DNA from: Spirochaetota bacterium
GTDB taxonomy: Bacteria; Spirochaetota; UBA4802; UBA5550
Direction: 5' to 3'
Assembly: GCA_963663865.1 (NCBI GenBank)
Contig: OY760686.1
Coordinates: forward strand, 608,001 to 672,000
DNA length: 64,000 bases
The notes below the pieces were generated by a model, which had not been told where the DNA came from, did not search any database, and saw only the letters and a program-made list of their open reading frames with translations. The position numbers were made by a program, and so were the translations under genes. This document shows, in pieces, positions 27,500 through 46,842 of the stretch (position 1 is the first letter of the stretch; every line of letters begins with the position of its first letter).

Positions 27500-27555
27500 A
27501 TATTCCTACCTTGCTTTCCTGCTTTCTCCACGGGGCTTGAAGGAAGCAGGGCGCT

Positions 27556-27751
27556 TTTACTCCCCCCACGATGCTTGAAGTAGTGAGGTTGCTTCTGCAG
27601 CCCCCTCTTGAAAGAGGGGGAGGGAGGTAGCTCTGTGTGGTCATGCTTTTCAAGAGGGGGAGGGAGGTAGCTCTGTATGGTCATGCTTTTCAAGAGGGGG
27701 AGAGAGGAGGCTCTGTGTGGTCGTGCTTTTTAAGAGAGAGGAGGTCGGGGT
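27556..27751. repeat. Left repeat block: 67-bp unit plus 40-bp tandem repeats
   Basis: AAGAGGGGG at 27612, 27652, 27692 (variant 27732); hairpin CCCCCTCTT-GA-AAGAGGGGG. Confidence 0.92.
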
Positions 27752-27757
27752 TTAACT

Positions 27758-28126
27758 ATGACATTAATTTTTAACAGAACATCGACAAAGATCTATAGAC
27801 GACTTTTGCGTTCGAACATGACTGAAGCTGAAAAAGTGCTCTGGAAAGTGATTCGGAGGGATTCGCTTGGTGTCAGATTTAGACGACAGTATGGCATTGG
27901 CAAATTTATTGCTGATTTTTACTGTCCTTCCTTAAAACTGGTCATTGAGGTTGACGGCGGTGGCCATTTTACTGTCAGTGGTAAAAAGTATGACCGGGTA
28001 AGAACAGAATATATGAACTCTATTGGTATTGAGGTTATTCGTTATAAGAACCGTGATGTGCTTAATAACATGCAAAGTGTTATTGATAGCTTGCTGGATG
28101 TAATAGATAGATTGAAGAAAACGTGA
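27758..28126 (+). CDS. DUF559 / Vsr-like endonuclease domain protein
   Basis: LR.NMTEAE..LW, FRRQY.IG.FIADFYC..LKLVIEVDG..H, D..R. Confidence 0.92.
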   Translation: MTLIFNRTSTKIYRRLLRSNMTEAEKVLWKVIRRDSLGVRFRRQYGIGKFIADFYCPSLKLVIEVDGGGHFTVSGKKYDRVRTEYMNSIGIEVIRYKNRDVLNNMQSVIDSLLDVIDRLKKT

Positions 28127-28172
28127 CACTGGACTTGTCCGCTCCAGACGGTGCGGGAAGGAGCGAGGCGGC

Positions 28173-28411
28173 TTTACTCCCCCCACGGTGCTTGAAGTAG
28201 TGAGGTTGCTTTTGCAGCCCCCTCTTAAAAGAGGGGGAGGTACAGGGCTTTTTGTAATCGTGCTCTTGTAAGAGGGGGAGGTACAGGGCTTTTTGTAATC
28301 GTGCTCTTGTAAGAGGGGGAGGTACAGGGCCTTTTGTAATCGTGCTCTTAAAAGAGGGGGAGGTACGGGGCTTTGTGTGATCGTGCTTTTTCAAGAGGGG
28401 GAGAGACGGGG
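28173..28411. repeat. Right repeat block: 67-bp unit plus 41-bp tandem repeats
   Basis: 28173-28239 nearly identical to 27556-27622; AAGAGGGGG at 28229, 28270, 28311, 28352, 28393. Confidence 0.92.
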
Positions 28412-28494
28412 CTCTCCGTAAAAAAATCTTTGACATTTGCATTAAAACATCTTAACCATGCTGTTAAACAAGCTGCAATAAAGAGGTGTGTTCT

Positions 28495-32159: not shown

Positions 32160-32217
32160 ATCAAGCTCCGCATCCGTGCTACGCTTGTACAAAACTTTTT
32201 GTAATCGCGCTTTCAGC

Positions 32218-32315
32218 ATATAACAAAGCTTACCCGCGGCGTTCGGAGTACCTCACTTGGGCTTCGCCACATTGCGCAAAAGGCCGCGCAACGTCGGGTA
32301 AGCAAGACGTTATAC
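32218..32315 (+). mobile_element. Integron attC site 1
   Basis: R'' ATATAAC, L arms GCTTACCCG/CGGGTAAGC, R' GTTATAC. Confidence 0.8.
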
Positions 32316-32357
32316 ATCATTGCGAGTTAGTTATCTATTTATTAGGAGTTTGTTATA

Positions 32358-33035
32358 ATGAATACAACTCAGATAATTATTGAATTCATTAAAACTACAT
32401 TTTCTGCGGCAACACTAATTATTGCCATATATGGAATAAATACATGGCGCAAACAGTTGAAAGGCACAAATGAATTTGAACTTTCAAAGGAAATATTGGA
32501 AAATGTTTATAAAGTAAAAAGAGCTTTTGCTTATGTAAGAAACCCTGGAATTTATAAATCTGAATATCCAAAGGAACTCCAAGATATATTAACTTTAAAT
32601 ACTGAACAAAAAGCTTATGCAACACAGTACTATTATAATAAACGATTAGAAATACTTCATAATGAGTTTGAAAAACTTGAAAATTCATTTTTAAAAGGAA
32701 TTGTATTGTTTAATATTACTGATGAGATTATTTTGCCTTTACGGAAATGCAGAGCATCATTAATAATTGCATTGCAAGATCTTTACGAGTTTACTAAGAA
32801 TCCTGAATATATGAGTTCCGACAGAATACATGATGTTTATAAAATCATATATGATAATTTAAGCTTAAATGAAGATGATAAAGATCAGTTCTCAAAATAT
32901 GTAATAGAAGCAGTTGATTTGATGATTCATTGGTTAAAGCCGATGTTGTTAAAGTCAAAGATCAATAATAAAGAATTTCAAAATATTCTTAGAAGAACAA
33001 AAAGCTTTGAAATTATAATTCGCAACGACGTATAA
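32358..33035 (+). CDS. Hypothetical cassette protein with N-terminal TM helix
   Basis: AT-rich ORF, AGGAG RBS, stop codon inside R'' of attC2. Confidence 0.8.
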   Translation: MNTTQIIIEFIKTTFSAATLIIAIYGINTWRKQLKGTNEFELSKEILENVYKVKRAFAYVRNPGIYKSEYPKELQDILTLNTEQKAYATQYYYNKRLEILHNEFEKLENSFLKGIVLFNITDEIILPLRKCRASLIIALQDLYEFTKNPEYMSSDRIHDVYKIIYDNLSLNEDDKDQFSKYVIEAVDLMIHWLKPMLLKSKINNKEFQNILRRTKSFEIIIRNDV

Positions 33036-33099: not shown

Positions 33100-33249
33100 G
33101 AAAGGCAGAGCGCCGTCTTATTGTGAAATGAAATATTTATTGTAGATGTATTTCTTAACCCCGCCCCAAGAACGCCCGCCGTCCACTTTGACAGGCTCAG
33201 TGCGGCGCGTGTGGCGCTCATGAAATGATAAGTTATGTATGGAGAAAAC

Positions 33250-35259
33250 ATGGCAAAGAATAAAGAAAACAATAATAACGAACCAATAGAAAAGCAGCTC
33301 TGGAAATCAGCTGACAAACTCAGAAAAAACATAGACGCTGCTGAATACAAACATGTTGTTCTCGGTTTAATATTCCTGAAATACATTTCAGACGCTTTCG
33401 AAGAACTGCATTCAAAATTGAAAAGCGGTAAAGGCGATTATGCCGGAGCAGACCCGGAAGATAAAGACGAATACAAAGCGGAAAATGTCTTCTTCGTGCC
33501 GGAGCTTGCCCGCTGGTCGTATCTGCAATCAAAAGCTAAACTTCCCACCATCGGCAAAGAAGTAGACAACGCTATGGATGCCATTGAGAAGGAAAACCCT
33601 TCTCTCAAAGATGTGCTTCCTAAAGTCTACGCCCGGGGTAACCTTGACCCGACAAGTCTCGGAGGTCTTATTGACCTGATTGCTAAAATCGCCCTTGGCG
33701 ACGCAAAAGCTCGCAGTGCTGATGTACTTGGTCATGTTTTTGAATATTTTCTCGGAGAATTCGCCCTTGCCGAAGGTAAAAAGGGAGGCCAGTTCTATAC
33801 TCCCAGAAGTGTTGTCGAGCTCCTGGTCGAGATGCTTGAGCCCTTCAAGGGCCGGGTCTTTGATCCCTGTTGCGGTTCGGGTGGTATGTTCGTGCAGTCG
33901 GAGAAGTTCGTAGCGGAACATCGGGGTCGCCTTGATGACATTGCCATTTATGGGCAGGAGAGCAACCAGACGACCTGGCGCTTGTGCAAGATGAATCTTG
34001 CGATCCGGGGTATCGACAGTTCCATGGTCAAGTGGAACAACGAGGGTTCGTTTCTGAACGACGCGCACAAGGATCTCAAGGCGGACTTCATTATCGCGAA
34101 TCCCCCGTTCAATGTAAGCGACTGGTCGGGCGAGTTGTTGCGAAACGACGGCCGCTGGAAGTTCGGTACTCCTCCGGCGGGGAATGCGAACTATGCCTGG
34201 ATTCAGCATTTTCTTTATCATTTGAGTCCCAGCGGTATTGCCGGTTTTGTTTTGGCAAAAGGTTCTCTTACCTCTAAAAGTTCCGGTGAAGGAGAAATCC
34301 GCAAGGCATTGGTTGAAGCGAGGCTGGTTGACTGTATTGTTAATCTTCCGGCAAAGCTGTTTTTGAATACGCAGATTCCGGCGAGTCTGTGGTTTTTAAG
34401 AAGAGCCCCTCAGTCCCCTAAAGGGGATGAAAGAAATGAGATTCTTTTTATTGATGCCCGCAACCAAGGTCATTTGATCAATAGACGCACACGGGAACTT
34501 TCACATGAAGATATCCAGAAGATTGCCTCAACCTATCGTGCATGGAAGGCCCCCCGGCCCCCTGAAGGGGGAGTAGAAGGGAAGAAGCCTTCGGTGTTAC
34601 ATTCTGCGGATACGGCTTTTTATAGACAGCTTGAACAAAAAGCAAAGGAAATGCGTGCTCATCCAACAGAAGCCGAACGCTTGCTATGGGAGAAATTGAG
34701 CAACAAACAGCTTGGTGTCAAATTCAGGCAACAGCATGTGATCAATAAGTTTGTCGTAGATTTTTGTTCTATTGAAAAAGCACTGGTTATTGAAGTTGAT
34801 GGAGAAATACATGATACACAGAGAGAAAGAGATGAGGAAAGAACCAAAATACTTCAGGATGAAGGATATTCAATAATCAGATTAAAGAATAATGAAGTGA
34901 TCAATAATATTGAAAAGGTCATTGATAGTATCAAAAAATCTCTCCAAGCCCCCCGGCCCCCTGAAGGGGGAGACAAAAAAGGGAGTGATGCTCCCATGTC
35001 CCCTTTAGGGGATTTAGGGGCCTATGAAGATATAAAAGGTTTCTGCAACTCAGCGTCGATAGAACGTGTCAGGGAACTTGATTATGTGCTCACTCCCGGA
35101 AGATATGTCGGTCTTCCGGATGATGAGGATGACTTTGATTTCAAGGAGCGGTTTACTGCTCTTAAGCAGGAATTCATGGAGCAGTTGGAAGAAGAGAAGA
35201 TACTGAACAACCTGATACTTGAGAATCTTGAAAAGGTGAAATTTACACCAGGCTCATGA
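33250..35259 (+). CDS. hsdM: Type I R-M methyltransferase with in-frame DUF559 insertion
   Basis: [27 protein letters not shown]; insert ~34549-35021 with PTEAE.LLW, FRQQH, VIEVDG.IH. Confidence 0.95.
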
Positions 35260-35615
35260 TGGAGGCTGATTTGAAAGGATGGATGTACATTCTGGAATGC
35301 TCTGACGGGAGTTATTATACCGGCAGTACCAATAATCTGGAAAAACGCATCAGTCAGCATCAAAGCGGTGAGGGTTCAAATCACACGAAGAAACGCCTGC
35401 CTGTAAGGCTTGTGTATTTTGAGGAATATTCGAGAATTGATGAAGCTTTTTACAGGGAAAAAAAGATACAGGGATGGAATCGAGCCAAAAAGAAGGCACT
35501 AATTGATGGAGATAATGATCTGTTGCCTGAGCTGGCTAAGGCGTATAGGGATAGAGCCGGTGGCTTCGAGGGCCTCAGCCACCGCCGAGAGCCTCAGCCA
35601 CCGTCGAGAGACTGA
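35256..35615 (+). CDS. GIY-YIG nuclease family protein
   Basis: [36 protein letters not shown]. Confidence 0.92.
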
Positions 35616-35712
35616 AGAGCAGTGAGAGGAAGCGTGGCTTCGAGAGCCTCAGCCACCGTTGAGGGACTCAGCCACCGTCGTGGTTCGCTGCCTGAGGCTC
35701 TCGAAGGCAGCG
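35558..35712. repeat. Cluster of TTCGA-GAGC-CTCA hairpin repeats
   Basis: Copies at 35558-35584, 35585-35603, 35634-35656, 35661-35677; inverted copy 35686-35712. Confidence 0.88.
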
Positions 35713-35724
35713 GGAGGAATTATC

Positions 35725-36282
35725 ATGCCGGACAGCGAAGTTAAAACGATTAGTGATCTTATTTTCTATCAGTACGCCAAAATAATCGCCAAAAGCGCAA
35801 TGGGGCCAGACGCGAAGAAAAAAGCCTACGGGTTTATTAAAATAAAATTCCGGGAACTGAGGGATGATGAGATGAAATGGTCTGACATCCTGCGGGAGGA
35901 CAAACAGCTTGTCGATGCTGAGAAAAAATGCGCTTACTGCGCTTCAACCGAAAACCTTCAGTGGGAGCATATCGTTCCCAGGTCGCTGTCAATAAACGAA
36001 AGATGTTCTTCGTGTGAACATATTCAGGGGATTCATAATCAGATTCTGGCGTGTAAAACGTGTAATACGCGAAAGGGAACAAAGGGGATGTATCGTTTTA
36101 TGAAGGAGATGTATCCGGATGCCAAACCATTTTCTGACATTATCGCGCCGCTTCTTGAGAAGAAGTATCTGAAGACAATATGGCACTGTCATATATGCAA
36201 CGGAACGGTGGAATGGGACGGCAGCGGCCGGTCACTGGATGTGTTTGACCTTGATTTTCCATGCGAAGGAGGGGGAAGATGA
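35725..36282 (+). CDS. HNH endonuclease
   Basis: GGAGG then ATG 35725; CAYC, EHIVP, HNQILACKTCN..KG. Confidence 0.85.
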   Translation: MPDSEVKTISDLIFYQYAKIIAKSAMGPDAKKKAYGFIKIKFRELRDDEMKWSDILREDKQLVDAEKKCAYCASTENLQWEHIVPRSLSINERCSSCEHIQGIHNQILACKTCNTRKGTKGMYRFMKEMYPDAKPFSDIIAPLLEKKYLKTIWHCHICNGTVEWDGSGRSLDVFDLDFPCEGGGR

Positions 36283-37505
36283 AAGTGGTTCGACAGGCTC
36301 ACCAACCGTGGAAGGAATGTAAATTGGGGGATGCACCTTTAGAAATCATAGATGGCGATAGGGGCAAAAATTATCCTTCACAAAATGAATTTTCAAAAAA
36401 TGGTCATTGTTTATTTTTAAACACAAAAAATGTAAAAGAAAATGGTTTCGATTTTTCTGATTGCCAATTCATATCAGAGGAACGAGATAAAATGTTGCGT
36501 AAAGGCAAAATAAATAGAAATGATCTTGTTTTGACGACACGAGGGACGATTGGGAATATCGGCTTTTATAATCGTAACGTGTTATTTGATAGAATTCGTA
36601 TAAATTCAGGAATGGTAATTATTAGACCTGATACTCATGAATTATTACCTGAATTTAACTATTATTTATTTAGAAAAATGCAAAATGATTTCCACGTTTA
36701 TGTTTCTGGTAGTGCTCAACCGCAATTACCGATTAAAGATTTGAATGAAATGACCATTTTTCTCCCCCCGCTCCCTGAACAAAAGGCCATTGCAGGCGTG
36801 CTATCCAGCCTTGACGACAAGATTGATCTATTACACCGGCAGAATAAAACCCTGGAGGCAATGGCCGAGGCGATGTTCAGGAAGTGGTTTGTGGAGCCGT
36901 GCAAGGACGGGCTGCCGGAAGGGTGGGAGGAAGGTGCAGTTTTAAAATATTGCGATCACTGTAAAATATCTCTCAATCCACAAGCCTATCCTGATAGGGG
37001 ATTTATACATTTTAGTATCCCATCATTTGACGATAATAAGAATCCCGTAATTGAAAAAGGTTCACAGATACAGAGTAACAAATACATCATTTCCCCTAAT
37101 TGCATATTATTTTCAAAATTAAATCCTAATAAAACTAAGCGAGTCTGGCTTATTCTTAATGAATTAGATAATAATTCTATTTGTTCGACTGAGTTCCAGG
37201 TCGTAAAACCAAAGGATAAAAAATATCTATATTTCTTGTTCGGCTGGCTTACTATCGCACAAAATTATAAAGAAATTGCATCCGGTGTTGGTGGCACAAG
37301 TGGCAGTCATCAACGTATTGATCCAACAGATATTTTTTTATTTAACAGTCCAGTTATACCAGATGAATATATTGAAAAATATAATTTGTTTATTCAACCT
37401 ATATTTAGAAAAATACATGAGAATCGGAAACAAATATTTATTATTGAAAATTACCGCAATGTTCTTTTGCCAAAGTTGATGAGCGGAGAAGTAAGGATTG
37501 ATTAA
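36279..37505 (+). CDS. hsdS: Type I R-M specificity subunit
   Basis: Two TRDs, PPLPEQKAIA.VLSSLDDKIDL, R..LLPKLMSGE. Confidence 0.93.
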   Translation: MKVVRQAHQPWKECKLGDAPLEIIDGDRGKNYPSQNEFSKNGHCLFLNTKNVKENGFDFSDCQFISEERDKMLRKGKINRNDLVLTTRGTIGNIGFYNRNVLFDRIRINSGMVIIRPDTHELLPEFNYYLFRKMQNDFHVYVSGSAQPQLPIKDLNEMTIFLPPLPEQKAIAGVLSSLDDKIDLLHRQNKTLEAMAEAMFRKWFVEPCKDGLPEGWEEGAVLKYCDHCKISLNPQAYPDRGFIHFSIPSFDDNKNPVIEKGSQIQSNKYIISPNCILFSKLNPNKTKRVWLILNELDNNSICSTEFQVVKPKDKKYLYFLFGWLTIAQNYKEIASGVGGTSGSHQRIDPTDIFLFNSPVIPDEYIEKYNLFIQPIFRKIHENRKQIFIIENYRNVLLPKLMSGEVRID

Positions 37506-37518
37506 AACATTACAATAG

Positions 37519-40086
37519 GTGAGCGAAATGAATAATAGTCCTGAATTGAAATTGTTTATTAGTTATTCTCATGCAGATCATGTACATGTTGATAAATTTA
37601 GAAGGCATATTGCACCATTGAAAAGCAATGGTTTGATAAAGGACTGGATTGATAGAGAAATAATCGCTGGAGAAGAATTTCAGAACAGCATTGATAATAA
37701 TCTTGAAGATGCTGATATTATATGTTTGTTCATTTCAGCAAACTTTTTATCTTCAAATTCATGTGATAAAGAAAAAATTGATGCATATGAGCTTAATCGT
37801 AAAAAGGGAGTTTCTGTTGTGCCGGTAATATTATCAGAATGTGGTTGGTTGGATGTTAAAGATTTGTCAAAAAAACTTGCTCTTCCAGAAGATGGTAAGG
37901 CTGTTACTAAATTTGATGATGAAAATTCAGGATGGCATAATGTTTATGAAGGCCTAAAGAAAGTAATTGAGAGTGAAAATCTATTAAGGGGAATAAAAGT
38001 TAGCGAAAAATTTAATTTATTTCTAAATGATGCTGAGTTGTTAACAAAAGCTCATTCAAAAAAAGAAGAAATAAAAATAGATGACATATATATTTATCCG
38101 GATTTGTTGAAATATGATGAGATTAGAGGTGTTGAGAAAAAAATAAATGCAGAAGATGTTATTGTTGAAATATTTGAATATAATAAGATCTTAATTGCTG
38201 GAGAAAATCAATCAGGTAAAACTACACTTTGTAAAGTTATTTATAAAAATTTATTCAGTAAAAAATATTATCCAATTTACCTTTCTGATGAAAAATATGA
38301 TGGCCAATTGATAAATAAAATAAAGAAAGAATTTGAAAAACAATATCAAGGATGTTCCTATGATTTAATTTGCAAGTCTAATCGTATTGTAGTAATAGTA
38401 GATAATTTTCATCATGTTTTACAAAAAGATAGAATTATTGATGAGTTATCTACCTTTGATAATCAGTTATTAATTGTCGATGAAATATTTAGCTTAAACA
38501 TCAGAGATGAGAATATATCAAAAAATTATAAGAATTATAAAATTAAAGAATTTAATCCAATTTTGCGAAATGAATTAATTAAAAAATGGATTTGTCTTGA
38601 TGGAACTTTTATTCACCGCTGTCATGACAATGAATTATATAAATCTCTTGATGATGCAACCGAGTTGGTCAATTCGACTTTAGGTAAAGTAATAAATAGT
38701 GGAATAATGCCATCCTACCCGTTTTTTATATTATCTGTATTAAGTACATATGAATCATTTGCAAAACCACTTGATCAGGAAATAACTTCGCAAGGATATT
38801 GTTATCAATCATTGATTTATTTATATCTAAGGAAATCAGGAGTTAAGACTGATGAAATCGATACTTATGTAAATTTTTTGTCGGTAATAGCTCATCAAAT
38901 ATTTAAAATGAAATTAAATGAATTAAATTTGGAACAATTTAATTCATTTATTGACTCATATAATGTACAATATAATCTTTCTGTTAACTTAACTAAATTA
39001 TTACATCATCTTAAGCTGACAAAAATATTCTCTCAAAATAGCTGCGGAAATTATTGCTTTGTCTACCCATATCTTTACTACTATTTTGTAGCAAAGTATT
39101 TAGCTGAGCACCTTGAACAAAATAAAGAAATAATTAATCGTATTTGTGCAAATTTGCATGTTGATGTAAATGCATACATAGCAATTTTTATTACTCATCA
39201 TACAAAAAATGATTGTGTGCTCGAAGAAATTGTTTTGAATTCTACCGATTTATTTTATGACAATAAACCAGCTGACCTTTCATTAGATGAATTATCTTTT
39301 TTTGATGATGAAATTGAAACATTAATAAGTGCTGCATTGCCAGCAGATTATTCTAATCCGGAGGCAGCTAGACAAAAGCGCCTTGAGTTGCAAGACAAAA
39401 TTGAACAGGATCAGGCTGGTGGTGATAAGGAAGAGTTAAATGATGAATTCGCTATCGAGTTGAGACGTAGTATTAAAACTGTTGAGGTAATGGGTAGTAT
39501 CGTAAAAAACAGGGCAGGTTCATTAAAGAAAAAGCGTATCGAAGAGATAATAAATGAAAGTATGGATGTTCATTTAAGGATTTTATTTTCTTTCTTTGAA
39601 TTTATTCGAGATAAAAATCAACAATCAAATATGATTGCTTATCTTTCATCTCGAATTAATGAATTTATATCTGACCAAGAAAAGAAACCTAGTGAAGAGA
39701 AATTAAAAAAGATTGCTCATAAAATATTCTGGAATTTAAATTACTCTGTTATTTATTCATTAATAAATGTTATTATAAACTCAATTGGTTCAGATAAATT
39801 ACAAAGTATAATAAACAAAATTTGTGATATAAAAAATACTCCAGCATCTTTTTTAATAAAGCATGGAACTCTTATGTGGTTTTCAAAAAATATACTTGTT
39901 GATGAAATGGCTGATAGAATTAAGGAAAATGATTTTTCAAAAACATCAATAAAAATTCTTAATCATCTGGTAGTAAATCACTGTTCGTTACATTCTATAG
40001 ATTTCAAGGAGAAGCAAAAAATATCTTTAAAGTTAGGTATTCCAATAAAAAGCTTACTAAGTATTCAAATGCAACGGAATCAGTAA
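37519..40086 (+). CDS. TIR domain fused to STAND/NACHT-like NTPase
   Basis: LFISYSH.D, FISANFL.S..C..E; Walker A GENQSGKTT, IVDNFH; AT-rich. Confidence 0.85.
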   Translation: MSEMNNSPELKLFISYSHADHVHVDKFRRHIAPLKSNGLIKDWIDREIIAGEEFQNSIDNNLEDADIICLFISANFLSSNSCDKEKIDAYELNRKKGVSVVPVILSECGWLDVKDLSKKLALPEDGKAVTKFDDENSGWHNVYEGLKKVIESENLLRGIKVSEKFNLFLNDAELLTKAHSKKEEIKIDDIYIYPDLLKYDEIRGVEKKINAEDVIVEIFEYNKILIAGENQSGKTTLCKVIYKNLFSKKYYPIYLSDEKYDGQLINKIKKEFEKQYQGCSYDLICKSNRIVVIVDNFHHVLQKDRIIDELSTFDNQLLIVDEIFSLNIRDENISKNYKNYKIKEFNPILRNELIKKWICLDGTFIHRCHDNELYKSLDDATELVNSTLGKVINSGIMPSYPFFILSVLSTYESFAKPLDQEITSQGYCYQSLIYLYLRKSGVKTDEIDTYVNFLSVIAHQIFKMKLNELNLEQFNSFIDSYNVQYNLSVNLTKLLHHLKLTKIFSQNSCGNYCFVYPYLYYYFVAKYLAEHLEQNKEIINRICANLHVDVNAYIAIFITHHTKNDCVLEEIVLNSTDLFYDNKPADLSLDELSFFDDEIETLISAALPADYSNPEAARQKRLELQDKIEQDQAGGDKEELNDEFAIELRRSIKTVEVMGSIVKNRAGSLKKKRIEEIINESMDVHLRILFSFFEFIRDKNQQSNMIAYLSSRINEFISDQEKKPSEEKLKKIAHKIFWNLNYSVIYSLINVIINSIGSDKLQSIINKICDIKNTPASFLIKHGTLMWFSKNILVDEMADRIKENDFSKTSIKILNHLVVNHCSLHSIDFKEKQKISLKLGIPIKSLLSIQMQRNQ

Positions 40087-40114
40087 GAACTAGACAGTGG
40101 AATTATTAATTACC

Positions 40115-40267
40115 ATGACCACTAAAATCACCGAATCCTCCATCGACTCCTTCTCCCTCAATCTCCTTGAGAGGCAGTGCTTTCAGTATTTCTACAGCCA
40201 TTTCGGCGCGTCGGTCGACGATGACCTGTTTCCCGGCAGTTCTGACAGAGGTTTAAGCCATGACTGA
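40115..40267 (+). pseudogene. Decayed hsdR 5' fragment
   Basis: MTTKITESSIDSFSLNLLERQCFQYFY vs HsdR MTTSKITESAIETFAIELLVKHGYHYIY. Confidence 0.7.
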
Positions 40268-41256
40268 CAATATGACAGATTTTCTTCTCTACAACAGCCC
40301 TGACGGAAGCATTAAGGTCGAGGTTTTTGTTCAGGACGAAACCGTATGGCTCACTCAAAAACGAATGGCTCTTCTGTTTTCAGTTGATGTCCGTACGGTA
40401 AGCGAACACCTTCGCAATATATTCAGCAGCAACGAGCTGGATGAAGCCTCAACTATCCGGAAAATCCGGACAGTTCAAAAAGAAGGTTCGCGCGATGTTT
40501 CACGGGAGCTTGACTATTATTCCCTGGATGCTATCATCGCGGTCGGTTATCGGGTTAATTCCTACCAGGCAACGCGATTTCGCGTATGGGCCACAAAAAT
40601 CCTGAAAGAATTCATAATTAAAGGTTTTGTTCTGGATGATGAACGCCTCAAACGGGGAAAAACTGTTTTCGGAAAAGATTATTTTGATGAGCTTCTGGAA
40701 CGCGTCCGCGAAATACGTGCAAGTGAACGGCGATTCTATCAAAAAATTACAGATATATATGAGCTGGCTGCTGATTACGATAAGAACGCTCCGATTACAA
40801 AAGATTTTTTTTCAGCAGTACAGAACAAACTCCACTGGGCTATAACCGGCAAGACAGCGGCTGAAATCATTTATGATTCAGCGGATTCAGCGAAAATCTA
40901 CATGGGTCTTACCAGTTGGAGGCATGCTCCGGAAGGGAAAATATTAAAATCTGACGTCAATGTCGCTAAAAATTATCTTAATAAAGCTCATATGGATGAA
41001 CAGAATAGTCTCGGCTTATCTTGATCTTGCAGAAAACCAGGCAAGGCGTCAGATAGTCACGCGGATGAAAGACTGGGTCCAATATCTGGACAAATTTCTG
41101 GCTCTTTCAGATTATCCCATCCTGTTGGAGAAGGGTAAAGTCTCAGCTCTGGAAGCGAAAATTAAAGCGGAAGCCGAATACGATAAATTTCGAGTGATCC
41201 AGGATAAACAGTACATATCCGATTTTGACGAAGAAGTCAGAAAACTGATTGGGTAA
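40260..41256 (+). pseudogene. RhuM-family protein, frameshifted near 41000
   Basis: ETVWLTQK, VGYRVNS..AT.FR.WAT, IRASERRFYQK; C-terminus continues in the 40960..41256 frame. Confidence 0.85.
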
Positions 41257-41272
41257 GAAACAGGCGGTAACA

Positions 41273-41521
41273 ATGACGACATCTAAAATAACTGAATCCG
41301 CCATTGAAACCTTTGCTATCGAACTTCTCGAAAAACACAGCTATCAATATATCTACTGCCCTGATATTGCACCGGACAGCGAAAATGAATCCACACCCCC
41401 TTCAGGGGGACGGGGGGCTTCAGGTGAGGCAGACAATAAACTTTCAGAATATCAAGTATGCGCAAGTTTCGTACATACCATCAACTTATCAGTTAACTGC
41501 CGAGGAATTCTCGGCGGTTGA
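41273..41521 (+). pseudogene. Duplicated hsdR 5' fragment
   Basis: MTTSKITESAIETFAIELL...[10 protein letters not shown] then unrelated sequence. Confidence 0.85.
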
Positions 41522-41532
41522 AGGAAAATAAA

Positions 41533-42585
41533 ATGAGCGATAAAAACCTTCCTGAAAAATTCCCCAACTTCGTCCTCTTTAAAACTGCCGACGGCAAGGT
41601 CAACATTGATGTCTATTTTTACAATGAAACTCTGTGGCTTAGTCAGAAGCTCATTGCCGAATTGTTTCAGAAAGACCGAAGCGTTATCTCCAAGCATTTG
41701 AAAAAAATCTTTAAGGAAGGTGAATTGGATGAGCAAGTGGTATGTGCAAAATTTGCACTAACCACTCAGCACGGCGCTATCGAAGGCAAAACTCAGCAAA
41801 AAGACGTTCTTTACTATAACCTACGAGCTATAACCGCCGTGGGCTACCGAGTCAATTCTCACCGGGCTACGGAGTTCCGCAAATGGGCCACCGAGATTCT
41901 GCATGAATACATTATCAAAGGCTTTGCCATGGATGATGAACGCCTCAAGCAGATCAAACACTTTGGACAGGACTACTTCGATGAACTTCTGGAACGCATT
42001 CGGGAAATCCGCCTGAGTGAGCGCAGACTCTACCAGAAAATCACCGATATTTATGCCCTGTCTGCCGATTATGACCGGAATGATGAAACCACCAAAGAGT
42101 TCTTTGCCACCGTGCAGAACAAAATGCACTGGGCAATACAAGGTAAAACCGCTGCCGAAATTATCTATACCGAGGCAGACGCACAAAAGCTCTATATGGG
42201 GCTAAAAACATGGAAGAATGCTCCCGGTGGTAAAATCCTGAAATCCGATGTAACCATTGCCAAGAACTACCTGAATCAGGAACATCTCAGAGAATTGGAG
42301 CGGATCGTCTCAGCCTATCTGGATTTAGCTGAAAACCGCGCCCGCCGAGGCATTGTGACCAACATGAAAGACTGGGTCCAATATCTGGACAAATTTCTGG
42401 CTCTTTCAGATTATCCCATCCTGTTGGAGAAGGGCAAAGTCTCAGCTCTGGAAGCGAAAATTAAAGCGGAAGCCGAATACGATAAATTTCGAGTGATCCA
42501 GGATAAACAGTACATATCCGATTTTGACGAAGAAGTCAGAAAACTGATCGGGAAAGAAACAGGCGATAACAATGACGACATCTAA
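41533..42585 (+). CDS. RhuM-family protein
   Basis: ETLWLSQK, VGYRVNS.RAT.FRKWAT, IRLSERR.YQKITD, VQNKMHWAI. Confidence 0.9.
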   Translation: MSDKNLPEKFPNFVLFKTADGKVNIDVYFYNETLWLSQKLIAELFQKDRSVISKHLKKIFKEGELDEQVVCAKFALTTQHGAIEGKTQQKDVLYYNLRAITAVGYRVNSHRATEFRKWATEILHEYIIKGFAMDDERLKQIKHFGQDYFDELLERIREIRLSERRLYQKITDIYALSADYDRNDETTKEFFATVQNKMHWAIQGKTAAEIIYTEADAQKLYMGLKTWKNAPGGKILKSDVTIAKNYLNQEHLRELERIVSAYLDLAENRARRGIVTNMKDWVQYLDKFLALSDYPILLEKGKVSALEAKIKAEAEYDKFRVIQDKQYISDFDEEVRKLIGKETGDNNDDI

Positions 42586-45500
42586 AATAACTGAATCCGC
42601 CATTGAAACCTTTGCTATCGAACTTCTTGTAAAACATGGCTATCATTATATCTACGGCCCTGGTATTGCACCGGATAGCGAAAATGAATCCACACCCCCT
42701 TCAGGGGGTCGGGGGGCCGTAGAGGTTCGGCATTCCTTTGAAGACGTACTACTTCTGGAAAAATTAAAAACCGCTGTTTCCCGCATTAACCCTGATATTC
42801 CAGCAGAAGCTCGTGAAGATGCCATAAAACAAATAGAACGCCTCAACTCACCCGAACTGATAGCCAACAACGAAACCTTCCATCGTATGTTGACCGAAGG
42901 CATTAAAGTGACATACCAAAAAGACAGAAACAGTCGCGGTGATTTAGTCTGGTTAATTGACTTTGATGAACCGGAGAACAATGACTTTATAGTTATAAAC
43001 CAGTATACCGTTATCAATTCCTCCCCTTTAGGAGACCGAGGTTCTGACGACTGTGAAACTTCTCCCCCTTCAGGGGGTTGGGGGGCCAAACGGCCTGATG
43101 TCATTTTATTCGTCAATGGATTGCCTCTTGTGGTTATTGAACTTAAAAATCCAGCTGATGAAAACGCCACTGTACATTCGGCATTTAAACAATTGCAAAC
43201 CTATAAACAGGCAATCCCCTCCCTGTTTACTTACAATGGATTTTTAGTTATTTCAGACGGTCTTGAAGCAAAAGCCGGTACAATTTCTTCCGGGTACAGT
43301 CGTTTTATGGCATGGAAAACCTCTGATGGCAAAGTTGAAGCCTCTCCGCTAATTGGTCAGTTGGAAACCTTAATTCGCGGTATGCTCGACAAAAAAACAT
43401 TACTGGATATTCTCAGGCACTTTATCGTATTTGAAAAATCCACCTTGTCATCCCCTTCAGGGGACCGAGGGGCCGTCATAACCATCCAAACCGTAAAAAA
43501 ACTGGCAGCCTATCATCAATACTATGCGGTAAACAGAGCTGTTGAGTCAACACTTCGTGCTTCCGGTTACATCAGAAAAAATGTCAATAATTCCGAAGGT
43601 TTTACCGTTCAGGAATCGCCTGAAAGTTATGGTGTTCCAGGTGTGAATTCCCAGCCTGTGGGCGATAAAAAAGGCGGTGTTGTCTGGCATACTCAGGGCT
43701 CTGGAAAATCCTTATCTATGGTTTTTTATACTGGAAAGGTAGTTCTCGAAATGGATAATCCGACCATTCTTGTAATCACCGACCGCAATGACCTTGATGA
43801 CCAGCTTTTTTATACCTTTGCCTCATCTAAACAACTTCTCAGGCAGGAGCCGGTTCAGGCCGGGAACAGGGAGCAATTAAAGGAATTATTGAAAGTCGCA
43901 TCCGGCGGCGTGGTCTTCACCACGATTCAGAAGTTTCAACCGGAAGAAGGAAATGTTTACGAAAAACTGTCTGACAGAACCAATATTATAGTTATCGCCG
44001 ATGAAGCCCACAGAACTCAATACGGTTTTAAGGCAAAAACAATCGATGATAAAGACGAGAATGGCAAAGTAATTGGTAAGAAAGTTGTTTATGGATTTGC
44101 AAAATACATGAGGGATGCCCTCCCCAACGCGACTTATCTCGGTTTTACCGGAACGCCCATTGAAAACACCGATGTCAACACCCCAGCTGTTTTCGGAAAT
44201 TATGTTGATGTATATGATATAGCACAGTCCGTTCATGACGGTGCAACTGTCCGCATCTATTACGAAAGCCGTCTCGCAAAAATTGTATTAAGCAGTGAAG
44301 GCAAAAAACTTATAAAAGAACTTGATGATGATCTTGCACAGGATGAACTTTCCGAAACACAAAAGGCAAAAGCCAAATGGACTCAGCTTGAGGCTCTTAT
44401 CGGCAGTGCTGACAGAATAAAGCAGGTCGCTAAAGACATTATAACGCATTTTGAACAGAGACAGGAGGTTATAGACGGCAAGGCAATGATTGTCACTATG
44501 TCTCGTCGCATTGCTGCTGAACTGTACAAGGCTATTATTGAAATCAAGCCAGAATGGCATAAAGATGATTTGAAGAAAGGCGTTATCAAAGTTGTCATGA
44601 CTTCTGCTTCTTCAGATGGCCCGGAAATATCCAAACACCATACGAAAAAAGAGCAAAGACGTTCTTTAGCAGACCGAATGAAAGAACCCGAAGATGAACT
44701 GAAACTGGTAATCGTAAGGGATATGTGGCTCACCGGTTTTGATGTGCCTTCCCTGCATACACTCTATATTGATAAACCGATGAAAGGCCATAATTTAATG
44801 CAGGCAATCGCCCGTGTTAATCGTGTTTATAAAGACAAAACCGGCGGACTCATAGTTGACTATCTTGGAATAGCTTCTGACCTGAAAAAGGCTCTCTCTT
44901 TTTATTCTGACGCTGGCGGTAAAGGTGACCCGGCTGTTAATCAGGAAAAAGCCGTACAGCTTATGCTGGAAAAACTGGAAGTTGTGTCTCAATTGTTCCA
45001 TGGTTTTGCTTACGAAGAATACTTAGAAGCTGAAACCGGTAGAAAATTATCACTTATTCTTTCGGCAGAAGAACATATACTTGGGCTTGAAAATGGAAGA
45101 AAACGATACATTGATGAAGTAACGGCCTTATCTCAAGCATTTTCAATAGCTATACCACATGAACAGGCAATGGACGTCAAAGACGAAGTGGCCTTTTTTC
45201 AGGCAGTAAAATCACGTCTTGTTAAGTTTGACAGTACCGGCTCTGGAAAAACTGATGAGGAAGTTGAAACCGCAATTCGTCAGGTCATAGACAAGGCACT
45301 TGTTACTGAAAGAGTAATTGATGTTTTTGATGCTGCTGGTATTAAAAAGCCGGATATTTCCATATTGTCAGAAGACTTCCTTCTTGAAGTTAAAAATATG
45401 GAGCACAAGAATATTGCTCTTGAAGTTCTGAAAAAACTCCTTAACGATGAAATAAAATCCCGGACAAAGAAGAATTTAATTCAAAGCAGAACCTTAATGG

Positions 45501-45916
45501 AAATGCTTGAAAATTCAATTAAGAAATATCACAACAAAATCCTTACTGCTGCGGAAGTAATCGAAGAGCTTATTGAATTATCAAAAGAAATTCATGAAAT
45601 GGACAAAGAGCCAAAAGAAATGGGTCTTTCGGATTATGAATACGCATTTTATACAGCCATTTCGAATAATGACAGTGCAAAACAGGTCATGGAACAGGAT
45701 AAACTCAGAGAGCTTGCAGTTGTACTTTATGAAAAGGTAAAAGAAAACGCTTCTATTGACTGGACGATAAAGGAAAGCGTTAAAGCAAAATTAAAAGTAA
45801 TTGTTAAAAGAATTTTAAGACAGTATGGTTATCCGCCAGATATGCAAATGTTAGCAACAGAAACTGTATTAAAACAGGCTGAACTAATTGCTGAGGAATT
45901 AACACATGGTGAATAG
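42572..45916 (+). CDS. hsdR: Type I R-M restriction subunit
   Basis: RPD..LFVNGLP...IELK, WHTQGSGKS, DEAHR, FTGTP, MWLTGFD, QAIARVNR. Confidence 0.96.
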   Translation: MTTSKITESAIETFAIELLVKHGYHYIYGPGIAPDSENESTPPSGGRGAVEVRHSFEDVLLLEKLKTAVSRINPDIPAEAREDAIKQIERLNSPELIANNETFHRMLTEGIKVTYQKDRNSRGDLVWLIDFDEPENNDFIVINQYTVINSSPLGDRGSDDCETSPPSGGWGAKRPDVILFVNGLPLVVIELKNPADENATVHSAFKQLQTYKQAIPSLFTYNGFLVISDGLEAKAGTISSGYSRFMAWKTSDGKVEASPLIGQLETLIRGMLDKKTLLDILRHFIVFEKSTLSSPSGDRGAVITIQTVKKLAAYHQYYAVNRAVESTLRASGYIRKNVNNSEGFTVQESPESYGVPGVNSQPVGDKKGGVVWHTQGSGKSLSMVFYTGKVVLEMDNPTILVITDRNDLDDQLFYTFASSKQLLRQEPVQAGNREQLKELLKVASGGVVFTTIQKFQPEEGNVYEKLSDRTNIIVIADEAHRTQYGFKAKTIDDKDENGKVIGKKVVYGFAKYMRDALPNATYLGFTGTPIENTDVNTPAVFGNYVDVYDIAQSVHDGATVRIYYESRLAKIVLSSEGKKLIKELDDDLAQDELSETQKAKAKWTQLEALIGSADRIKQVAKDIITHFEQRQEVIDGKAMIVTMSRRIAAELYKAIIEIKPEWHKDDLKKGVIKVVMTSASSDGPEISKHHTKKEQRRSLADRMKEPEDELKLVIVRDMWLTGFDVPSLHTLYIDKPMKGHNLMQAIARVNRVYKDKTGGLIVDYLGIASDLKKALSFYSDAGGKGDPAVNQEKAVQLMLEKLEVVSQLFHGFAYEEYLEAETGRKLSLILSAEEHILGLENGRKRYIDEVTALSQAFSIAIPHEQAMDVKDEVAFFQAVKSRLVKFDSTGSGKTDEEVETAIRQVIDKALVTERVIDVFDAAGIKKPDISILSEDFLLEVKNMEHKNIALEVLKKLLNDEIKSRTKKNLIQSRTLMEMLENSIKKYHNKILTAAEVIEELIELSKEIHEMDKEPKEMGLSDYEYAFYTAISNNDSAKQVMEQDKLRELAVVLYEKVKENASIDWTIKESVKAKLKVIVKRILRQYGYPPDMQMLATETVLKQAELIAEELTHGE

Positions 45917-46207: not shown

Positions 46208-46606
46208 TCACCATAAAAGCTTAAGCCCATCTTTTACGTATTCCTCAAACGACCTGTCCTTTGATATCATGATAAGCCCTTCATTGATAGCTTGCCAGAT
46301 TAACATTCGGTCAAAAGGATCACTATGTCCGTATTTCTTTAATCGATAAAAAGAACTTACAGTTTTTTCATCAATATTTATAATTTCAAAACCTGATTCA
46401 GCTGCATAAAAAGGGAGTTCATCCGGGGTTACATTTTTAAGATTGAGCTTGCCGATGCTGTACTTTAACGAGATTTCCCAGAAAGTAATTGTACTTACAT
46501 AAACATCATTCTCAATTTTCTCAATTTTTCTTGCTACTTTCCCGGGTAATTTTTGAGGGTCAAAAATCGACCATAGAAAGGTATGCGTATCCAATAAATA
46601 CTTCAT
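46208..46606 (-). CDS. vapC: VapC/PIN toxin
   Basis: YLLDTHTFLW, S..TFWEI..K, H.DPFDR.LI.QA, S.D. Confidence 0.92.
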   Translation of the reverse strand: MKYLLDTHTFLWSIFDPQKLPGKVARKIEKIENDVYVSTITFWEISLKYSIGKLNLKNVTPDELPFYAAESGFEIINIDEKTVSSFYRLKKYGHSDPFDRMLIWQAINEGLIMISKDRSFEEYVKDGLKLLW

Positions 46607-46842
46607 GAATTGAAAAACTCATCATCAGAAAGCTTAAATGTATTTGTAATGGTAAAGCCAGCCTTGTTTTGCAGGATTCCCAGTTTTCTGTTGTTTCGTT
46701 TTATATATTTTGAGTAAGGAATTAATACAGCTATTTTTTCCTTCTTTTTGCCAAAGGAAAGAGTTATTTCTTCACCATCCTTTAATTCATTTATAATCTC
46801 AGATAAACGGGACTTAAATTCGCCGACTTGTAGTGTTTTCAT
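46603..46842 (-). CDS. Phd/YefM-family antitoxin
   Basis: MKTL.VGEFKS.LSEI...L..GEEI; overlaps vapC start. Confidence 0.88.
   Translation of the reverse strand: MKTLQVGEFKSRLSEIINELKDGEEITLSFGKKKEKIAVLIPYSKYIKRNNRKLGILQNKAGFTITNTFKLSDDEFFNS

What the first reader, a model, noticed from the sequence alone, without database searches (positions are those of the whole stretch)
34405..43473. Palindromic repeat colonising hsdM and hsdR in frame
Seen: nine copies of a ~23-25-bp unit GCCCC(C/T)nnnCCCCT(G/A)AAGGGG. In hsdM: 34405, 34549, 34948 forward, 34999 reverse. In hsdR, all reverse: 42694, 43022, 43063, 43451, plus 41395 in the duplicate. They give [56 protein letters not shown] with frames intact. 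Known: Rickettsia palindromic elements insert in frame, but without a linked nuclease. Inference: the resident DUF559 seeds its target repeat locally, adding to or replacing loop sequence.
Basis: partly seen in the sequence, partly recalled or inferred. Interest (0 to 1): 0.85.

Follow-up and report, generated by a model that had tools for sequence, protein, structure and literature searches.

The report
Nuclease-cassette repeats inside restriction genes
A short G/C-rich hairpin repeat and a small nuclease gene that it brackets sit in frame inside two restriction-modification genes, and the same kind of repeat-bounded nuclease cassette turns out to live, unspliced, inside many essential genes of other bacteria.

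Summary
Nine copies of a 23-25-nt unit (C-block, C-block, loop, G-block) lie in frame in hsdM and hsdR. In the 3.16-Mb genome the core occurs 8 times, all in this locus. Alignments with homologues show that each copy adds to or replaces a variable loop.

The units are not only "RPE-like". Two of them are the inverted ends of a DUF559 (Vsr-like nuclease) cassette that sits in frame in HsdM. Cassettes of this build (C-block + hairpin, DUF559, hairpin + G-block) are common. Of 102 DUF559 genes examined, 61 have such inverted ends. Of 82 metagenomic copies, 50 lie internally in frame in large genes such as LeuRS, MetH, RecG, HsdM and HsdR.

The closest described repeats are the BoxC/PIT/TMECO "intrastrand triplex" motifs. 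Their means of spread is unexplained.

The unit family is rare in the window's own phylum, where the three intragenic copies found in other genomes all lie in hsd homologues. It is abundant in Bacteroidota, so it probably arrived with the mobile hsd genes. Two hsdR copies (R1, R3) were gained after the split from an 87%-identical HsdR.

That the resident DUF559 itself seeds the solo copies is plausible but not shown. Most solo units elsewhere lie far from any DUF559.

The parts
33235..35259 (+). hsdM (674-aa frame; homologues start at MAK, 33250) carrying four repeat units and an in-frame DUF559 cassette
   Evidence: ORF. Pfam N6_Mtase 5.5e-102, HsdM_N, DUF559 6.5e-32. Alignment with 26 homologues.
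34405..34427 (+). Unit M1 (TCCCC-stem subtype), read as APQSPKGD. It replaces the baseline loop NKANGGYRNRT between two strands.
   Evidence: Baseline loop seen in P0034, P0036 and L261.
34549..34573 (+). Unit M2 = left inverted end of the DUF559 cassette (CCCCC-stem subtype), read as APRPPEGG
   Evidence: Same end in L249, L142 and L261.
34574..34947 (+). Cassette interior. The DUF559 / Vsr-like PD-(D/E)XK nuclease domain (Pfam match 34627-34944) keeps all 18 columns that are invariant in 13 aligned DUF559 domains.
   Evidence: PDB 3hrl 8.3e-13 and 3r3p (mobile intron protein) 0.0043.
34948..34972 (+). Unit M3, an extra direct copy identical to M2 (25/25). With the next 26 nt (34973-34998, a small GGGAG..CTCCC hairpin) it forms a 51-nt addition that is absent from L249 and L142.
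   Evidence: A degenerate counterpart is present in P0002.
34999..35022 (-). Unit M4 = right inverted end of the cassette (TCCCC subtype), read as SPLGDLGA
   Evidence: (I12).
41394..41418 (-). Copy of unit R1 inside the duplicated 5' stub of hsdR. The duplication 41005-41304 / 42304-42603 is 91% identical.
   Evidence: D1, D3.
42572..45916 (+). hsdR (1114 aa; baseline homologues are 1077-1080 aa) carrying four units in three N-terminal loops
42693..42717 (-). Unit R1, read as PPSGGRGA. Absent from the closest homologues (P0121, L250).
43022..43044 (-). Unit R2a (degenerate), read as SPLGDRGS
   Evidence: (I13).
43062..43086 (-). Unit R2b, read as PPSGGWGA. The identical peptide, at the same site, is found in L250.
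43451..43473 (-). Unit R3, read as SPSGDRGA. It replaces the baseline KKEDKETG. In P0146 and P0168 the same loop holds a DUF559 cassette of another subtype.
27545..28426 (+). The second DUF559 gene of the genome (27758-28126), free-standing. It is bracketed by private repeats: a 106-nt direct repeat, the hairpin CCCCCTCTTNAAAGAGGGGG on each side, and 40/41-nt tandem arrays.

Best explanation
The nine units belong to a G/C-rich three-block repeat: an outer C-block followed by a C-stem/loop/G-stem hairpin. This is the build of the BoxC/PIT 'intrastrand triplex' motifs.

Units of this kind form the terminal inverted repeats of a large family of small selfish cassettes that encode a DUF559 (Vsr-like) nuclease. 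hsdM holds one complete cassette in frame, in a loop near its C-terminal end. The other units in hsdM and hsdR are nuclease-less solo copies lodged in variable loops. Because the unit is a multiple of three, lacks stops in 5 of 6 frames and codes Pro/Gly/Ser-rich peptides, insertions that survive read as flexible linkers and the host protein stays whole.

The repeat family is foreign to this genome's phylum. It came in with the horizontally mobile hsd genes, in a low-GC defence island. At least two hsdR copies were added later in this lineage.

Shown here: the anatomy, the insertion-or-replacement nature of each copy, the cassette architecture, its spread as one unit, and its tolerance inside sole-copy essential genes.

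Inferred: the nuclease cuts at or near unit-bearing or empty sites, and repair copies the cassette or single units in, in a homing-like way.
For: Locus:
- All 8 core copies of the genome lie in this locus.
- Each copy replaces or extends a loop that is plain in close homologues.

Cassette ends:
- In hsdM, W(+) - DUF559 - W(-) is shared by the window, L249 and L142. L261 and P0045 carry the two ends without the nuclease at the same site.
- The same unit brackets DUF559 in an RfbB-like gene, in 1400-aa frames read by eye as PurL-like (no family scan), in MetH, and upstream of HisF.
- 61 of 102 DUF559 genes have flanking inverted repeats scoring above the 99th percentile of 490 random controls.
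- The third block lies on the outer side. Left, C fraction 0.50 outside the hairpin against 0.21 inside; right, G fraction 0.52 against 0.20 (55 flanks each).
- In L149 and L161, two cassette copies 1.8 kb apart are 93% and 97% identical. The similarity runs exactly from the first W(+) unit to the last W(-) unit.

In-frame life:
- Of 82 metagenomic DUF559 hits, 50 lie internally in frame. Hosts include LeuRS (20 loci), MetH, RecG, IleRS, ValRS, MetRS, Tgt and TsaB.
- In two complete genomes the only leuS above the family cut-off is the one with the cassette.

Nuclease:
- It matches PDB 3hrl, and 3r3p, the I-Bth0305I homing-endonuclease domain.
- All 18 columns invariant among 13 aligned DUF559 domains are kept.

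Other points:
- No rival mobiliser was found: 0 of 24 Y1-transposase loci in five unit-rich genomes have the unit, against 5 of 19 DUF559 loci.
- Foreign origin: the core is in 20 of 300 other genomes of the phylum, at most 9 copies each, against 50-58 copies in three Bacteroidota genomes. All 3 intragenic true units found among 20 fetched sites of same-phylum genomes are in hsd homologues. The island has 27-45% GC against 50-57% in its flanks.
Against: - No cleavage or mobility was tested.
- Most solo units lie far from any DUF559: DUF559 is within the held flanks in only 4 of 120 loci, and 40 of those loci hold only 300 nt a side.
- One unit-rich genome (G043, 53 cores) has no DUF559 bracketed by this unit.
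- On the DUF559 tree the end-type is clustered (15 changes against a shuffled mean of 23; 0 of 500 shuffles as low). It still changes at least 15 times, the tree is poorly resolved (47 of 98 forks open), and kinship confounds the test.
- 41 of 102 DUF559 genes show no clear inverted ends.
- No target-site duplication could be defined.
- The hairpins are no more stable than shuffles.
- The structure model is poor (mean pLDDT 57), so the loop mapping rests mainly on alignments.
Confidence: 0.6

Rival explanations
1. The DUF559 resident in hsdM is active in this genome and has itself seeded the solo units into nearby loops of hsdM and hsdR.
For: - All copies of the genome lie within 9 kb of the cassette. 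That is about 1 per kb, against about 0.009 per kb in unit-rich genomes.
- R1 and R3 are absent from an 87%-identical HsdR that keeps the baseline loop.
- R1 also predates a local duplication.
- Cassettes do copy to sites 1.8 kb away in L149 and L161.
- Hairpin copies are about 6-10 times denser within 2.5 kb of 49 cassettes than at 2.5-10 kb.
Against: - The near-cassette excess comes mostly from loci with two whole cassettes; only about 6 solo copies remain.
- The solo units here differ from one another as much as copies in other genomes do; only M2 and M3 are identical.
- The R2 unit and the HsdM end pair also occur in a locus without DUF559 (L261 with P0144).
- The related DUF559-bearing locus P0003/P0136 has only one unit in hsdR (the pairing is inferred from equal contig length).
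Confidence: 0.25
2. The units are an independent repeat of the BoxC/PIT triplex-motif or REP kind. They spread by replication slippage, template switching, recombination or an unlinked enzyme. DUF559 genes merely land between them or are trapped there.
For: - Thousands of such motifs exist with no nuclease nearby. TMECO is always intergenic in E. coli K-12, and its authors found no link to mobile elements (PMC4666352, sections 16 and 18 read).
- 63 of 123 units are solo. The 54 pairs enclose 12-124 nt of unrelated sequence.
- G043 has 53 cores and no cognate cassette.
- End-type switches often on the DUF559 tree.
Against: - Pairs always have the cassette's polarity: 54 have the inverted partner downstream and 0 upstream.
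- Cassette copies share their unit arrays end to end.
- 61 of 102 DUF559 genes from unselected contexts carry such ends.
- No unit lies next to any of 24 Y1 transposase genes.
- Each small nuclease gene in this genome has its own private flanking repeats.
Confidence: 0.2
3. The insert is a domesticated working part of the R-M enzyme, for example an added nicking or repair nuclease, and the Pro/Gly peptides are selected linkers or loop variants (for example to escape phage anti-restriction proteins). On this view it is not a selfish element.
For: - 38 of the 120 best HsdM relatives carry DUF559, and 3 of 120 HsdR relatives do.
- The domain keeps its conserved residues.
- The same loops are hit again and again in different lineages.
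- A DUF559 protein is active in vivo in Caulobacter (PMC12907096, passages read).
Against: - The same cassette sits in unrelated housekeeping enzymes such as LeuRS, MetH, RecG and Tgt, where a nuclease has no evident role.
- It occupies two different HsdM loops in different lineages, with different end families.
- Close relatives at 87-90% identity lack it.
- HsdM is an adenine methylase, so a T:G-mismatch Vsr role does not fit (established knowledge of Vsr).
Confidence: 0.08

Closest known systems
BoxC / PIT elements / TMECO 'intrastrand triplex motifs' (Holder et al. 2015, PMC4666352; abstract, sections 15, 16, 18 and part 1 of 20 read)
   Same: - Three consecutive G/C blocks with short loops: C-C-G on one strand, C-G-G on the other.
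- Dispersed in many copies, and often as inverted pairs of two subtypes.
- Variable between strains, with no known function or means of spread.
- The ends of many DUF559 cassettes found here fit the TMECO pattern CCCTCNCCC..GGGNGAGGG..GGGNGAGGG.
- One such motif lies beside E. coli ycjD, a DUF559 gene.
   Different: - The window's unit has blocks of only 5-7 C/G, below the 6-15-nt stems of that paper's search and unlike its 9-nt consensus.
- It lies inside genes in frame, whereas TMECO is reported as always intergenic in K-12.
- It brackets a nuclease gene. That paper's text holds neither 'endonuclease' nor 'DUF'.
- Triplex formation was not tested here.
Vsr-like (PD-(D/E)XK) homing endonucleases: I-Bth0305I and the 'fractured gene' family (Dassa et al. 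2009, PMC2677866, passages read; PMC3424549, one table row read)
   Same: - Same nuclease fold family (3r3p match).
- Sits in conserved sites of DNA-metabolism and other conserved genes.
- Presence/absence polymorphism at one site.
   Different: - Those genes sit in group I introns, between split-intein halves, or break the host gene in two.
- Here there is no intron, no intein (no Hint domain among the Pfam hits) and no break.
- The nuclease is translated as part of the host protein and is bounded by inverted hairpin repeats.
REP elements with their RAYT transposase (REPtrons), and intragenic REPs (Di Nocera et al. 2013, PMC3733652, passages read)
   Same: - A short G/C hairpin repeat dispersed genome-wide.
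- A small enzyme gene bracketed by inverted copies of the repeat.
- Some copies lie inside replication and repair genes.
   Different: - No GTAG or CGTC tag.
- The bracketed enzyme is a PD-(D/E)XK nuclease, not an HUH tyrosine transposase.
- 0 of 24 Y1-transposase loci in five unit-rich genomes hold this unit; they have REPs of their own.
   Same: Palindromic repeats inserted in frame in genes that stay functional.
   Different: - RPEs are roughly 100-150 nt and confined to Rickettsia (recalled).
- The unit here is 23-25 nt, found across phyla, and linked to a nuclease cassette.

Membership tests
BoxC/PIT/TMECO intrastrand triplex motif | Three consecutive triplex-compatible blocks (two pyrimidine blocks and one purine block, or the complement) separated by short loops | tested here: met
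   The unit is G-CCCCCC-GN-CCCCC-TGAA-GGGGG. The outer block lies on the outer side in 30 of 55 left flanks and 36 of 55 right flanks of other cassettes, against 1 of 55 on the inner side.
BoxC/PIT/TMECO intrastrand triplex motif | TMECO consensus CCCTCNCCC N3-6 GGGNGAGGG N3 GGGNGAGGG, with 9-nt stems (ITxF stems 6-15 nt) | tested here: not met
   The window's blocks are pure C/G runs of 5-7 nt. The consensus is met by the ends of other DUF559 cassettes and by the motif beside E. coli ycjD, not by this unit.
BoxC/PIT/TMECO intrastrand triplex motif | Forms an intrastrand triplex in vitro | not testable with these tools
   Only hairpin folding could be computed. It was no better than shuffles.
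Homing endonuclease gene (Vsr-like family) | Nuclease of the Vsr / PD-(D/E)XK fold with conserved catalytic residues | tested here: met
   Pfam DUF559 6.5e-32. PDB 3hrl 8.3e-13 and 3r3p 0.0043. All 18 invariant columns kept.
Homing endonuclease gene (Vsr-like family) | Presence/absence polymorphism at the same site of a conserved host gene | tested here: met
   For HsdM loop 2, filled in the window, L249 and L142; ends only in L261 and P0045; plain in P0034 and P0036. HsdR loop R3 is filled in P0146 and P0168.
Homing endonuclease gene (Vsr-like family) | Housed in a self-splicing intron or an intein, or free-standing between genes | tested here: not met
   One uninterrupted 674-aa frame, with no intein (Hint) family among the Pfam hits. 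Rfam was not searched for introns. No RNA runs were available.
Homing endonuclease gene (Vsr-like family) | Cleaves the empty allele and is copied in by repair | not testable with these tools
   Needs biochemistry and genetics.
REP/RAYT (REPtron) | GTAG- or CGTC-tagged palindrome associated with a Y1 (HUH) transposase | tested here: not met
   No such tag in the unit. 0 of 24 Y1_Tnp loci carry the unit.
MITE | Terminal inverted repeats plus a target-site duplication; an internal sequence shared among copies; derived from a transposase-bearing IS | tested here: inconclusive
   Inverted pairs of fixed polarity are seen in 54 of 123 units. But their internal sequences are unrelated apart from a 9-of-51 subfamily, no duplication was found, and the autonomous partner encodes a nuclease, not a transposase.
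Rickettsia palindromic element | Palindromic element of about 100-150 nt found in Rickettsia genomes (recalled) | tested here: not met
   The unit is 23-25 nt with sharp borders. It is found mainly in Bacteroidota records.

The most novel reading that the evidence does not exclude
The BoxC/PIT-type three-block G/C repeats have had no known origin since the 1990s. They may be the ends, and the nuclease-less miniature derivatives, of a very large family of DUF559 nuclease cassettes. These cassettes would represent a third way, besides introns and inteins, for a homing-type nuclease to live inside coding sequence. They would stay in the mature protein as an extra domain, joined by repeat-coded Pro/Gly linkers, even in sole-copy essential genes such as leuS and metH. 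The hsd locus of this window would be a site where both the cassette and its miniatures have accumulated.
Probability: 0.4. Interest if true: 0.85.

Novelty: new variant of a known kind. Interest (0 to 1): 0.72.

Why it matters
If the link holds, it gives a testable origin and mobiliser for a class of bacterial repeats (BoxC/PIT/triplex motifs) that has been described for decades without one.

It would also show that a selfish nuclease can persist inside essential proteins with neither RNA nor protein splicing. That bears on how new domains and linkers enter proteins, on annotation (oversized LeuRS, MetH, RecG and Hsd proteins), and on how restriction-modification genes vary their surface loops.

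The Pro/Gly-rich units also mark loops that tolerate insertions, which is useful for protein engineering.

For this window alone the practical result is more modest. The hsd locus is a horizontally acquired defence island whose genes carry a foreign repeat family and three small nuclease cassettes.

Tried and rejected
- **Hairpin stability.** DNA folds of six unit-bearing stretches were no better than shuffles, so "palindrome strength" was dropped as an argument.
- **Regex classing of cassette ends.** This failed for 62 of 103 elements. It was replaced by local alignment against controls and by stem extraction.
- **Inner-side conservation of paired units.** This was a test of descent from DUF559 cassettes by deletion. 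Only a 9-of-51 subfamily shares "ATCAAAAG", so the test was not decisive.
- **HsdM structure.** The AlphaFold model from 27 sequences reached only mean pLDDT 57, pTM 0.49. No fold search was run on it. It is used only to note that DUF559 (residues 460-571) folds on its own and that the repeat-coded stretches are low-confidence.
- **Sequencing runs.** No RNA holder was listed. Contigs of four runs laid on hsdM showed no joint that removes the cassette. One unrelated hsdM in X9 carries the plain loop 1. This is no evidence either way on expression or splicing.
- **E. coli.** ycjD is present in 3378 of 5426 complete genomes. The ycjD-less strain examined (Nissle) has a different neighbourhood, so no clean empty site was obtained. 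Motif number could not be correlated with ycjD because per-genome counts are not returned.
- **Rejected readings.** Chance. A genome-wide native repeat. An intein (no Hint domain). A RAYT-driven REP.
- **Literature.** Searches found no paper on DUF559 cassettes bounded by such repeats or lying in frame in host genes. 25 papers hold "DUF559", judged by title and abstract listing; four of them were opened at the passages that hold the word. Subscription journals and supplements were not visible.

Full report
**1. The observation**

The region is a type I restriction-modification locus inside a low-GC island (27-45% GC between 30 and 48 kb, against 50-57% on either side). Its genes, in order:
- hsdM, 33235-35259
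- a GIY-YIG gene, 35256-35615
- an HNH-like gene, 35659-36282
- hsdS, 36261-37505
- a TIR-STAND NTPase, 37519-40086
- a truncated RhuM gene, 40260-41024
- a duplicated 5' stub of hsdR
- a full RhuM gene, 41518-42585
- hsdR, 42572-45916

- The degenerate pattern gives 7 matches, against 0.01 expected. The two remaining copies align in register.
- The unit is G-CCCC(C/T)-NNN-(C/T)CCCC-T(G/A)AA-GGGG(G/A). That is an outer C-block followed by a 5-bp C/G hairpin with a 4-nt loop.
- There are two subtypes, and the pair at the base of the stem co-varies with them: CCCCC...GGGGG in one, TCCCC...GGGGA in the other.
- In the complete 3,156,400-nt genome the core occurs 8 times, all in this locus.
- The hairpins are not unusually stable.
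- By eye, 5 of the unit's 6 frames are stop-free, so an open frame is expected, not remarkable.

**2. Insertion or replacement**

HsdM. Of the 120 best relatives, 38 carry DUF559 and most of the rest are plain 515-aa proteins at 85-90% identity. In an alignment of 27:
- Unit M1 replaces the loop NKANGGYRNRT.
- The stretch from APRPPEGG to SPLGDLGA replaces about 4-6 residues between "TYHxWR" and "YEDIKGF".

HsdR. Baseline relatives are 1077-1080 aa and the window's protein is 1114 aa. The units sit in three loops:
- R1: TPE becomes [15 protein letters not shown].
- R2: ENH-V becomes NSSPLGDRGSDDCETSPPSGGWGA.
- R3: KKEDKETG becomes TLSSPSGDRGA.

The same loops hold other Pro/Gly-rich repeat peptides in other lineages. 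In P0146 and P0168, loop R3 holds a whole DUF559 cassette of another subtype. P0135 holds a GIY-YIG domain in frame.

An HsdR from another genome of the same phylum (L250) is 87.3% identical over 395 residues.
- It shares the R2b unit.
- It has plain R1 and R3 loops.

A deletion could hardly restore the baseline sequence exactly. So R1 and R3 were gained in the window's lineage. R1 predates the local duplication of the hsdR start.

**3. What the units are**

At the DNA level the HsdM insert is W(+) - DUF559 - W(-), where "W" is the window's unit.
- The left end is of the CCCCC subtype and the right end of the TCCCC subtype.
- This is shared by the window, L249 (same phylum) and L142 (metagenome).
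- L261 and P0045 have only the two ends, 16 nt or less apart, at the same site.
- The window alone has an extra 51 nt (unit M3 plus a small hairpin) before the right end.

The exact unit is widespread.
By record title they are nearly all Bacteroidota, such as Mucilaginibacter and Paludibacter.
- The 25-nt borders are sharp, and the flanks show no conservation.
- In those genomes the unit occurs in all frames, both at gene ends and inside conserved genes. Examples from Pfam scans of 56 spanning frames are RadA, ThyA, XseA, HsdS, PhoH and a rhamnosidase.
- Of 123 units, 54 have an inverted partner 12-124 nt downstream and none has one upstream. The fixed polarity, C-block outward, is the same as at the cassette ends.

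**4. The cassette family**

- In five Bacteroidota genomes, 10 of 19 DUF559 hits lie in open frames longer than 380 aa.
- A metagenome scan with 13 aligned DUF559 domains confirmed 587 of 604 candidate stretches. The best 78 loci hold 82 DUF559 hits: 50 internal and in frame, 10 at the N-side of a frame, 1 at the C-side, and 21 free-standing.
- 52 of the 61 non-free frames were scanned against NCBIfam. Nine frames were left out for size:
  - two were duplicates;
  - seven were recognised as MetH only by peptide.
- Hosts found in that scan:
  - LeuRS in 20 loci, MetH in 5, RecG in 4;
  - one each of IleRS, ValRS, MetRS, Tgt, TsaB, acetyl-CoA synthetase, IcmF, phosphoglycerate mutase, HsdM and HsdR;
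  - two LegC-type aminotransferases;
  - frames in which DUF559 precedes SufS, Gmk, RNase H, IspF or HisF.
- In two complete genomes the only leuS above the family cut-off is the cassette-bearing one, with frames of 1120 and 1113 aa. So the interrupted protein must work.

Nearly every cassette is bracketed by a C-block plus hairpin on the left and a hairpin plus G-block on the right.
- 61 of 102 elements score above the 99th percentile of 490 random pseudo-elements from the same loci. The median score is 14 against 7.
- The third block is on the outer side.
- The stems fall into families: CCCCC, CCCCTCTCC, CCCTCCCC, CCCTTTCC and CCTCCC.
- In L149 and L161 two copies of one cassette fill successive intergenic gaps of a sugar operon. 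They are 93.3% identical over 614 nt and 96.8% over 436 nt. The similarity begins at the first W(+) unit after the upstream stop codon and ends at the last W(-) unit before the next start codon. The unit arrays are therefore the ends of what gets copied.
- Viral contigs hold 66 DUF559 hits. Of these, 55 are free-standing and 18 have long hairpin ends.

In this genome the second DUF559 gene (27758-28126) and the GIY-YIG gene each have private flanking repeats that are found almost nowhere else in the genome.

**5. The nuclease**

- The insert matches PDB 3hrl (8.3e-13).
- It also matches 3r3p, the catalytic domain of the group I intron homing endonuclease I-Bth0305I (0.0043).
- It keeps all 18 columns that are invariant among 13 aligned DUF559 domains, including E-x-D-G-x-x-H.
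- Vsr-like nucleases are established as homing endonucleases in introns and in "fractured" genes (PMC2677866, passages; PMC3424549, one table row).
- A DUF559 protein causes an SOS response in a Caulobacter methylase mutant (PMC12907096, passages).
- "DUF559 domain-containing protein" is enriched 14-fold among predicted inversion targets (PMC9881135, table passage). That is what flanking inverted repeats would produce.

**6. Origin in this genome**

- The core is found in 9 of 40 relatives, at 0-9 copies.
- It is found in 20 of 300 other genomes of the phylum, mostly at 1-2 copies.
- Three Bacteroidota genomes hold 50-58 copies each.
- Among 20 fetched sites in same-phylum genomes, true three-block units inside genes occur three times: in HsdM+DUF559 (L249), HsdR (L250) and HsdM (L261). 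The others are chance hairpins or an intergenic family in one genus.

So the repeat travels with this hsd family across phyla. The window's phylum is not named by the tools, and I make no claim about it.

**7. Who moves the units?**

- None of 24 Y1-transposase loci in five unit-rich genomes has the unit; they have REPs of their own. By contrast, 5 of 19 DUF559 loci in the same genomes do.
- On a DUF559 tree of 101 sequences the end-type needs 15 changes, against a shuffled mean of 23 (0 of 500 shuffles as low). The tree is weak and near-copies inflate the signal.

Against a strict link:
- Only 4 of 120 unit loci have DUF559 in the DNA held.
- G043 has 53 cores but no cognate cassette.
- 41 of 102 DUF559 genes lack clear ends.

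Local seeding by the resident nuclease has suggestive support only (section 2). There are also counter-examples: L261 with P0144, and P0003 with P0136.

**8. Comparison with what is known**

The closest described repeats are the BoxC/PIT/TMECO intrastrand-triplex motifs (PMC4666352). Points in common:
- three G/C blocks;
- inverted pairs of two subtypes;
- variation between strains;
- no known function or mobiliser.

That paper reports TMECO as always intergenic in K-12 and as unlinked to mobile elements. Its text has no mention of endonucleases. In E. coli K-12 a TMECO-type motif lies about 190 nt downstream of ycjD, a DUF559 gene. A degenerate motif lies at the ycjD stop codon and a partial duplicate of the gene's 3' end lies between the two. 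ycjD is present in 3378 of 5426 complete genomes.

REP/RAYT, MITEs, RPEs, inteins and intron-borne homing endonucleases each share some features, and each fails at least one defining feature (see the membership table).

**9. Verdict**

"Local seeding by the resident copy" remains a hypothesis. Six literature searches found no description of hairpin-bounded DUF559 cassettes living in frame in host genes. Subscription journals and supplements could not be checked.

Noticed in passing
window 27545-28426: A free-standing DUF559 gene (27758-28126). It is bracketed by a 106-nt direct repeat (83% identical), by the hairpin CCCCCTCTTNAAAGAGGGGG on each side (its only 2 copies in the genome), and by 40/41-nt tandem arrays (3 copies on the left, about 5 on the right).
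   Followed up: partly
window 35256-35710: A GIY-YIG nuclease gene directly after hsdM. Its 3' end and downstream region are built of GCCTCAGCCACCG-type repeats (4 local copies, 2 elsewhere in the genome) that include an inverted pair. An HNH-like gene follows at 35659-36282. So three small nuclease genes sit in or beside hsdM.
   Followed up: partly
window 40260-42603: A tandem duplication. The 3' end of a RhuM-family gene plus the first 150 nt or so of hsdR (41005-41304) repeats at 42304-42603 with 91% identity. This leaves a truncated RhuM gene and an hsdR stub that already carries unit R1.
   Followed up: partly
window 28486-33035 and 37519-40086, 46208-50654: Other contents of the defence island: a WYL-domain protein, a DUF5343 + Swt1-like HEPN pair, a TIR-STAND NTPase between hsdS and hsdR, a PIN-domain gene and a Fic gene.
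   Followed up: no
P0135 (HsdR homologue): An HsdR relative of 1173 aa carries a GIY-YIG domain (PF01541) in frame. So nuclease families other than DUF559 may also live in frame in these genes.
   Followed up: no
L220, L221, L225: RAYT-like Y1 transposase genes in Paludibacter-type genomes are flanked by arrays of their own REPs: TCCCCGTAGGGGA, and in L225 CCCCCTGGAAGGGGG inside a longer repeat. The second hairpin differs from the window's core by one base, but the unit is otherwise different.
   Followed up: partly
L334 3541-4340 (E. coli K-12 fabI-ycjD-sapF): Downstream of ycjD (DUF559) lie a degenerate three-block motif at the stop codon, a partial duplicate of the ycjD 3' end, and a full TMECO-type motif. 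ycjD is missing from about 38% of complete E. coli genomes.
   Followed up: partly
L252-L260 (G039, G028; same order as the window): One genus carries an intergenic family of the unit with extended conserved flanks (AGCCCCCTAACCCCCTGAAGGGGGCATAATTGG), often as inverted pairs 65-160 nt apart.
   Followed up: no
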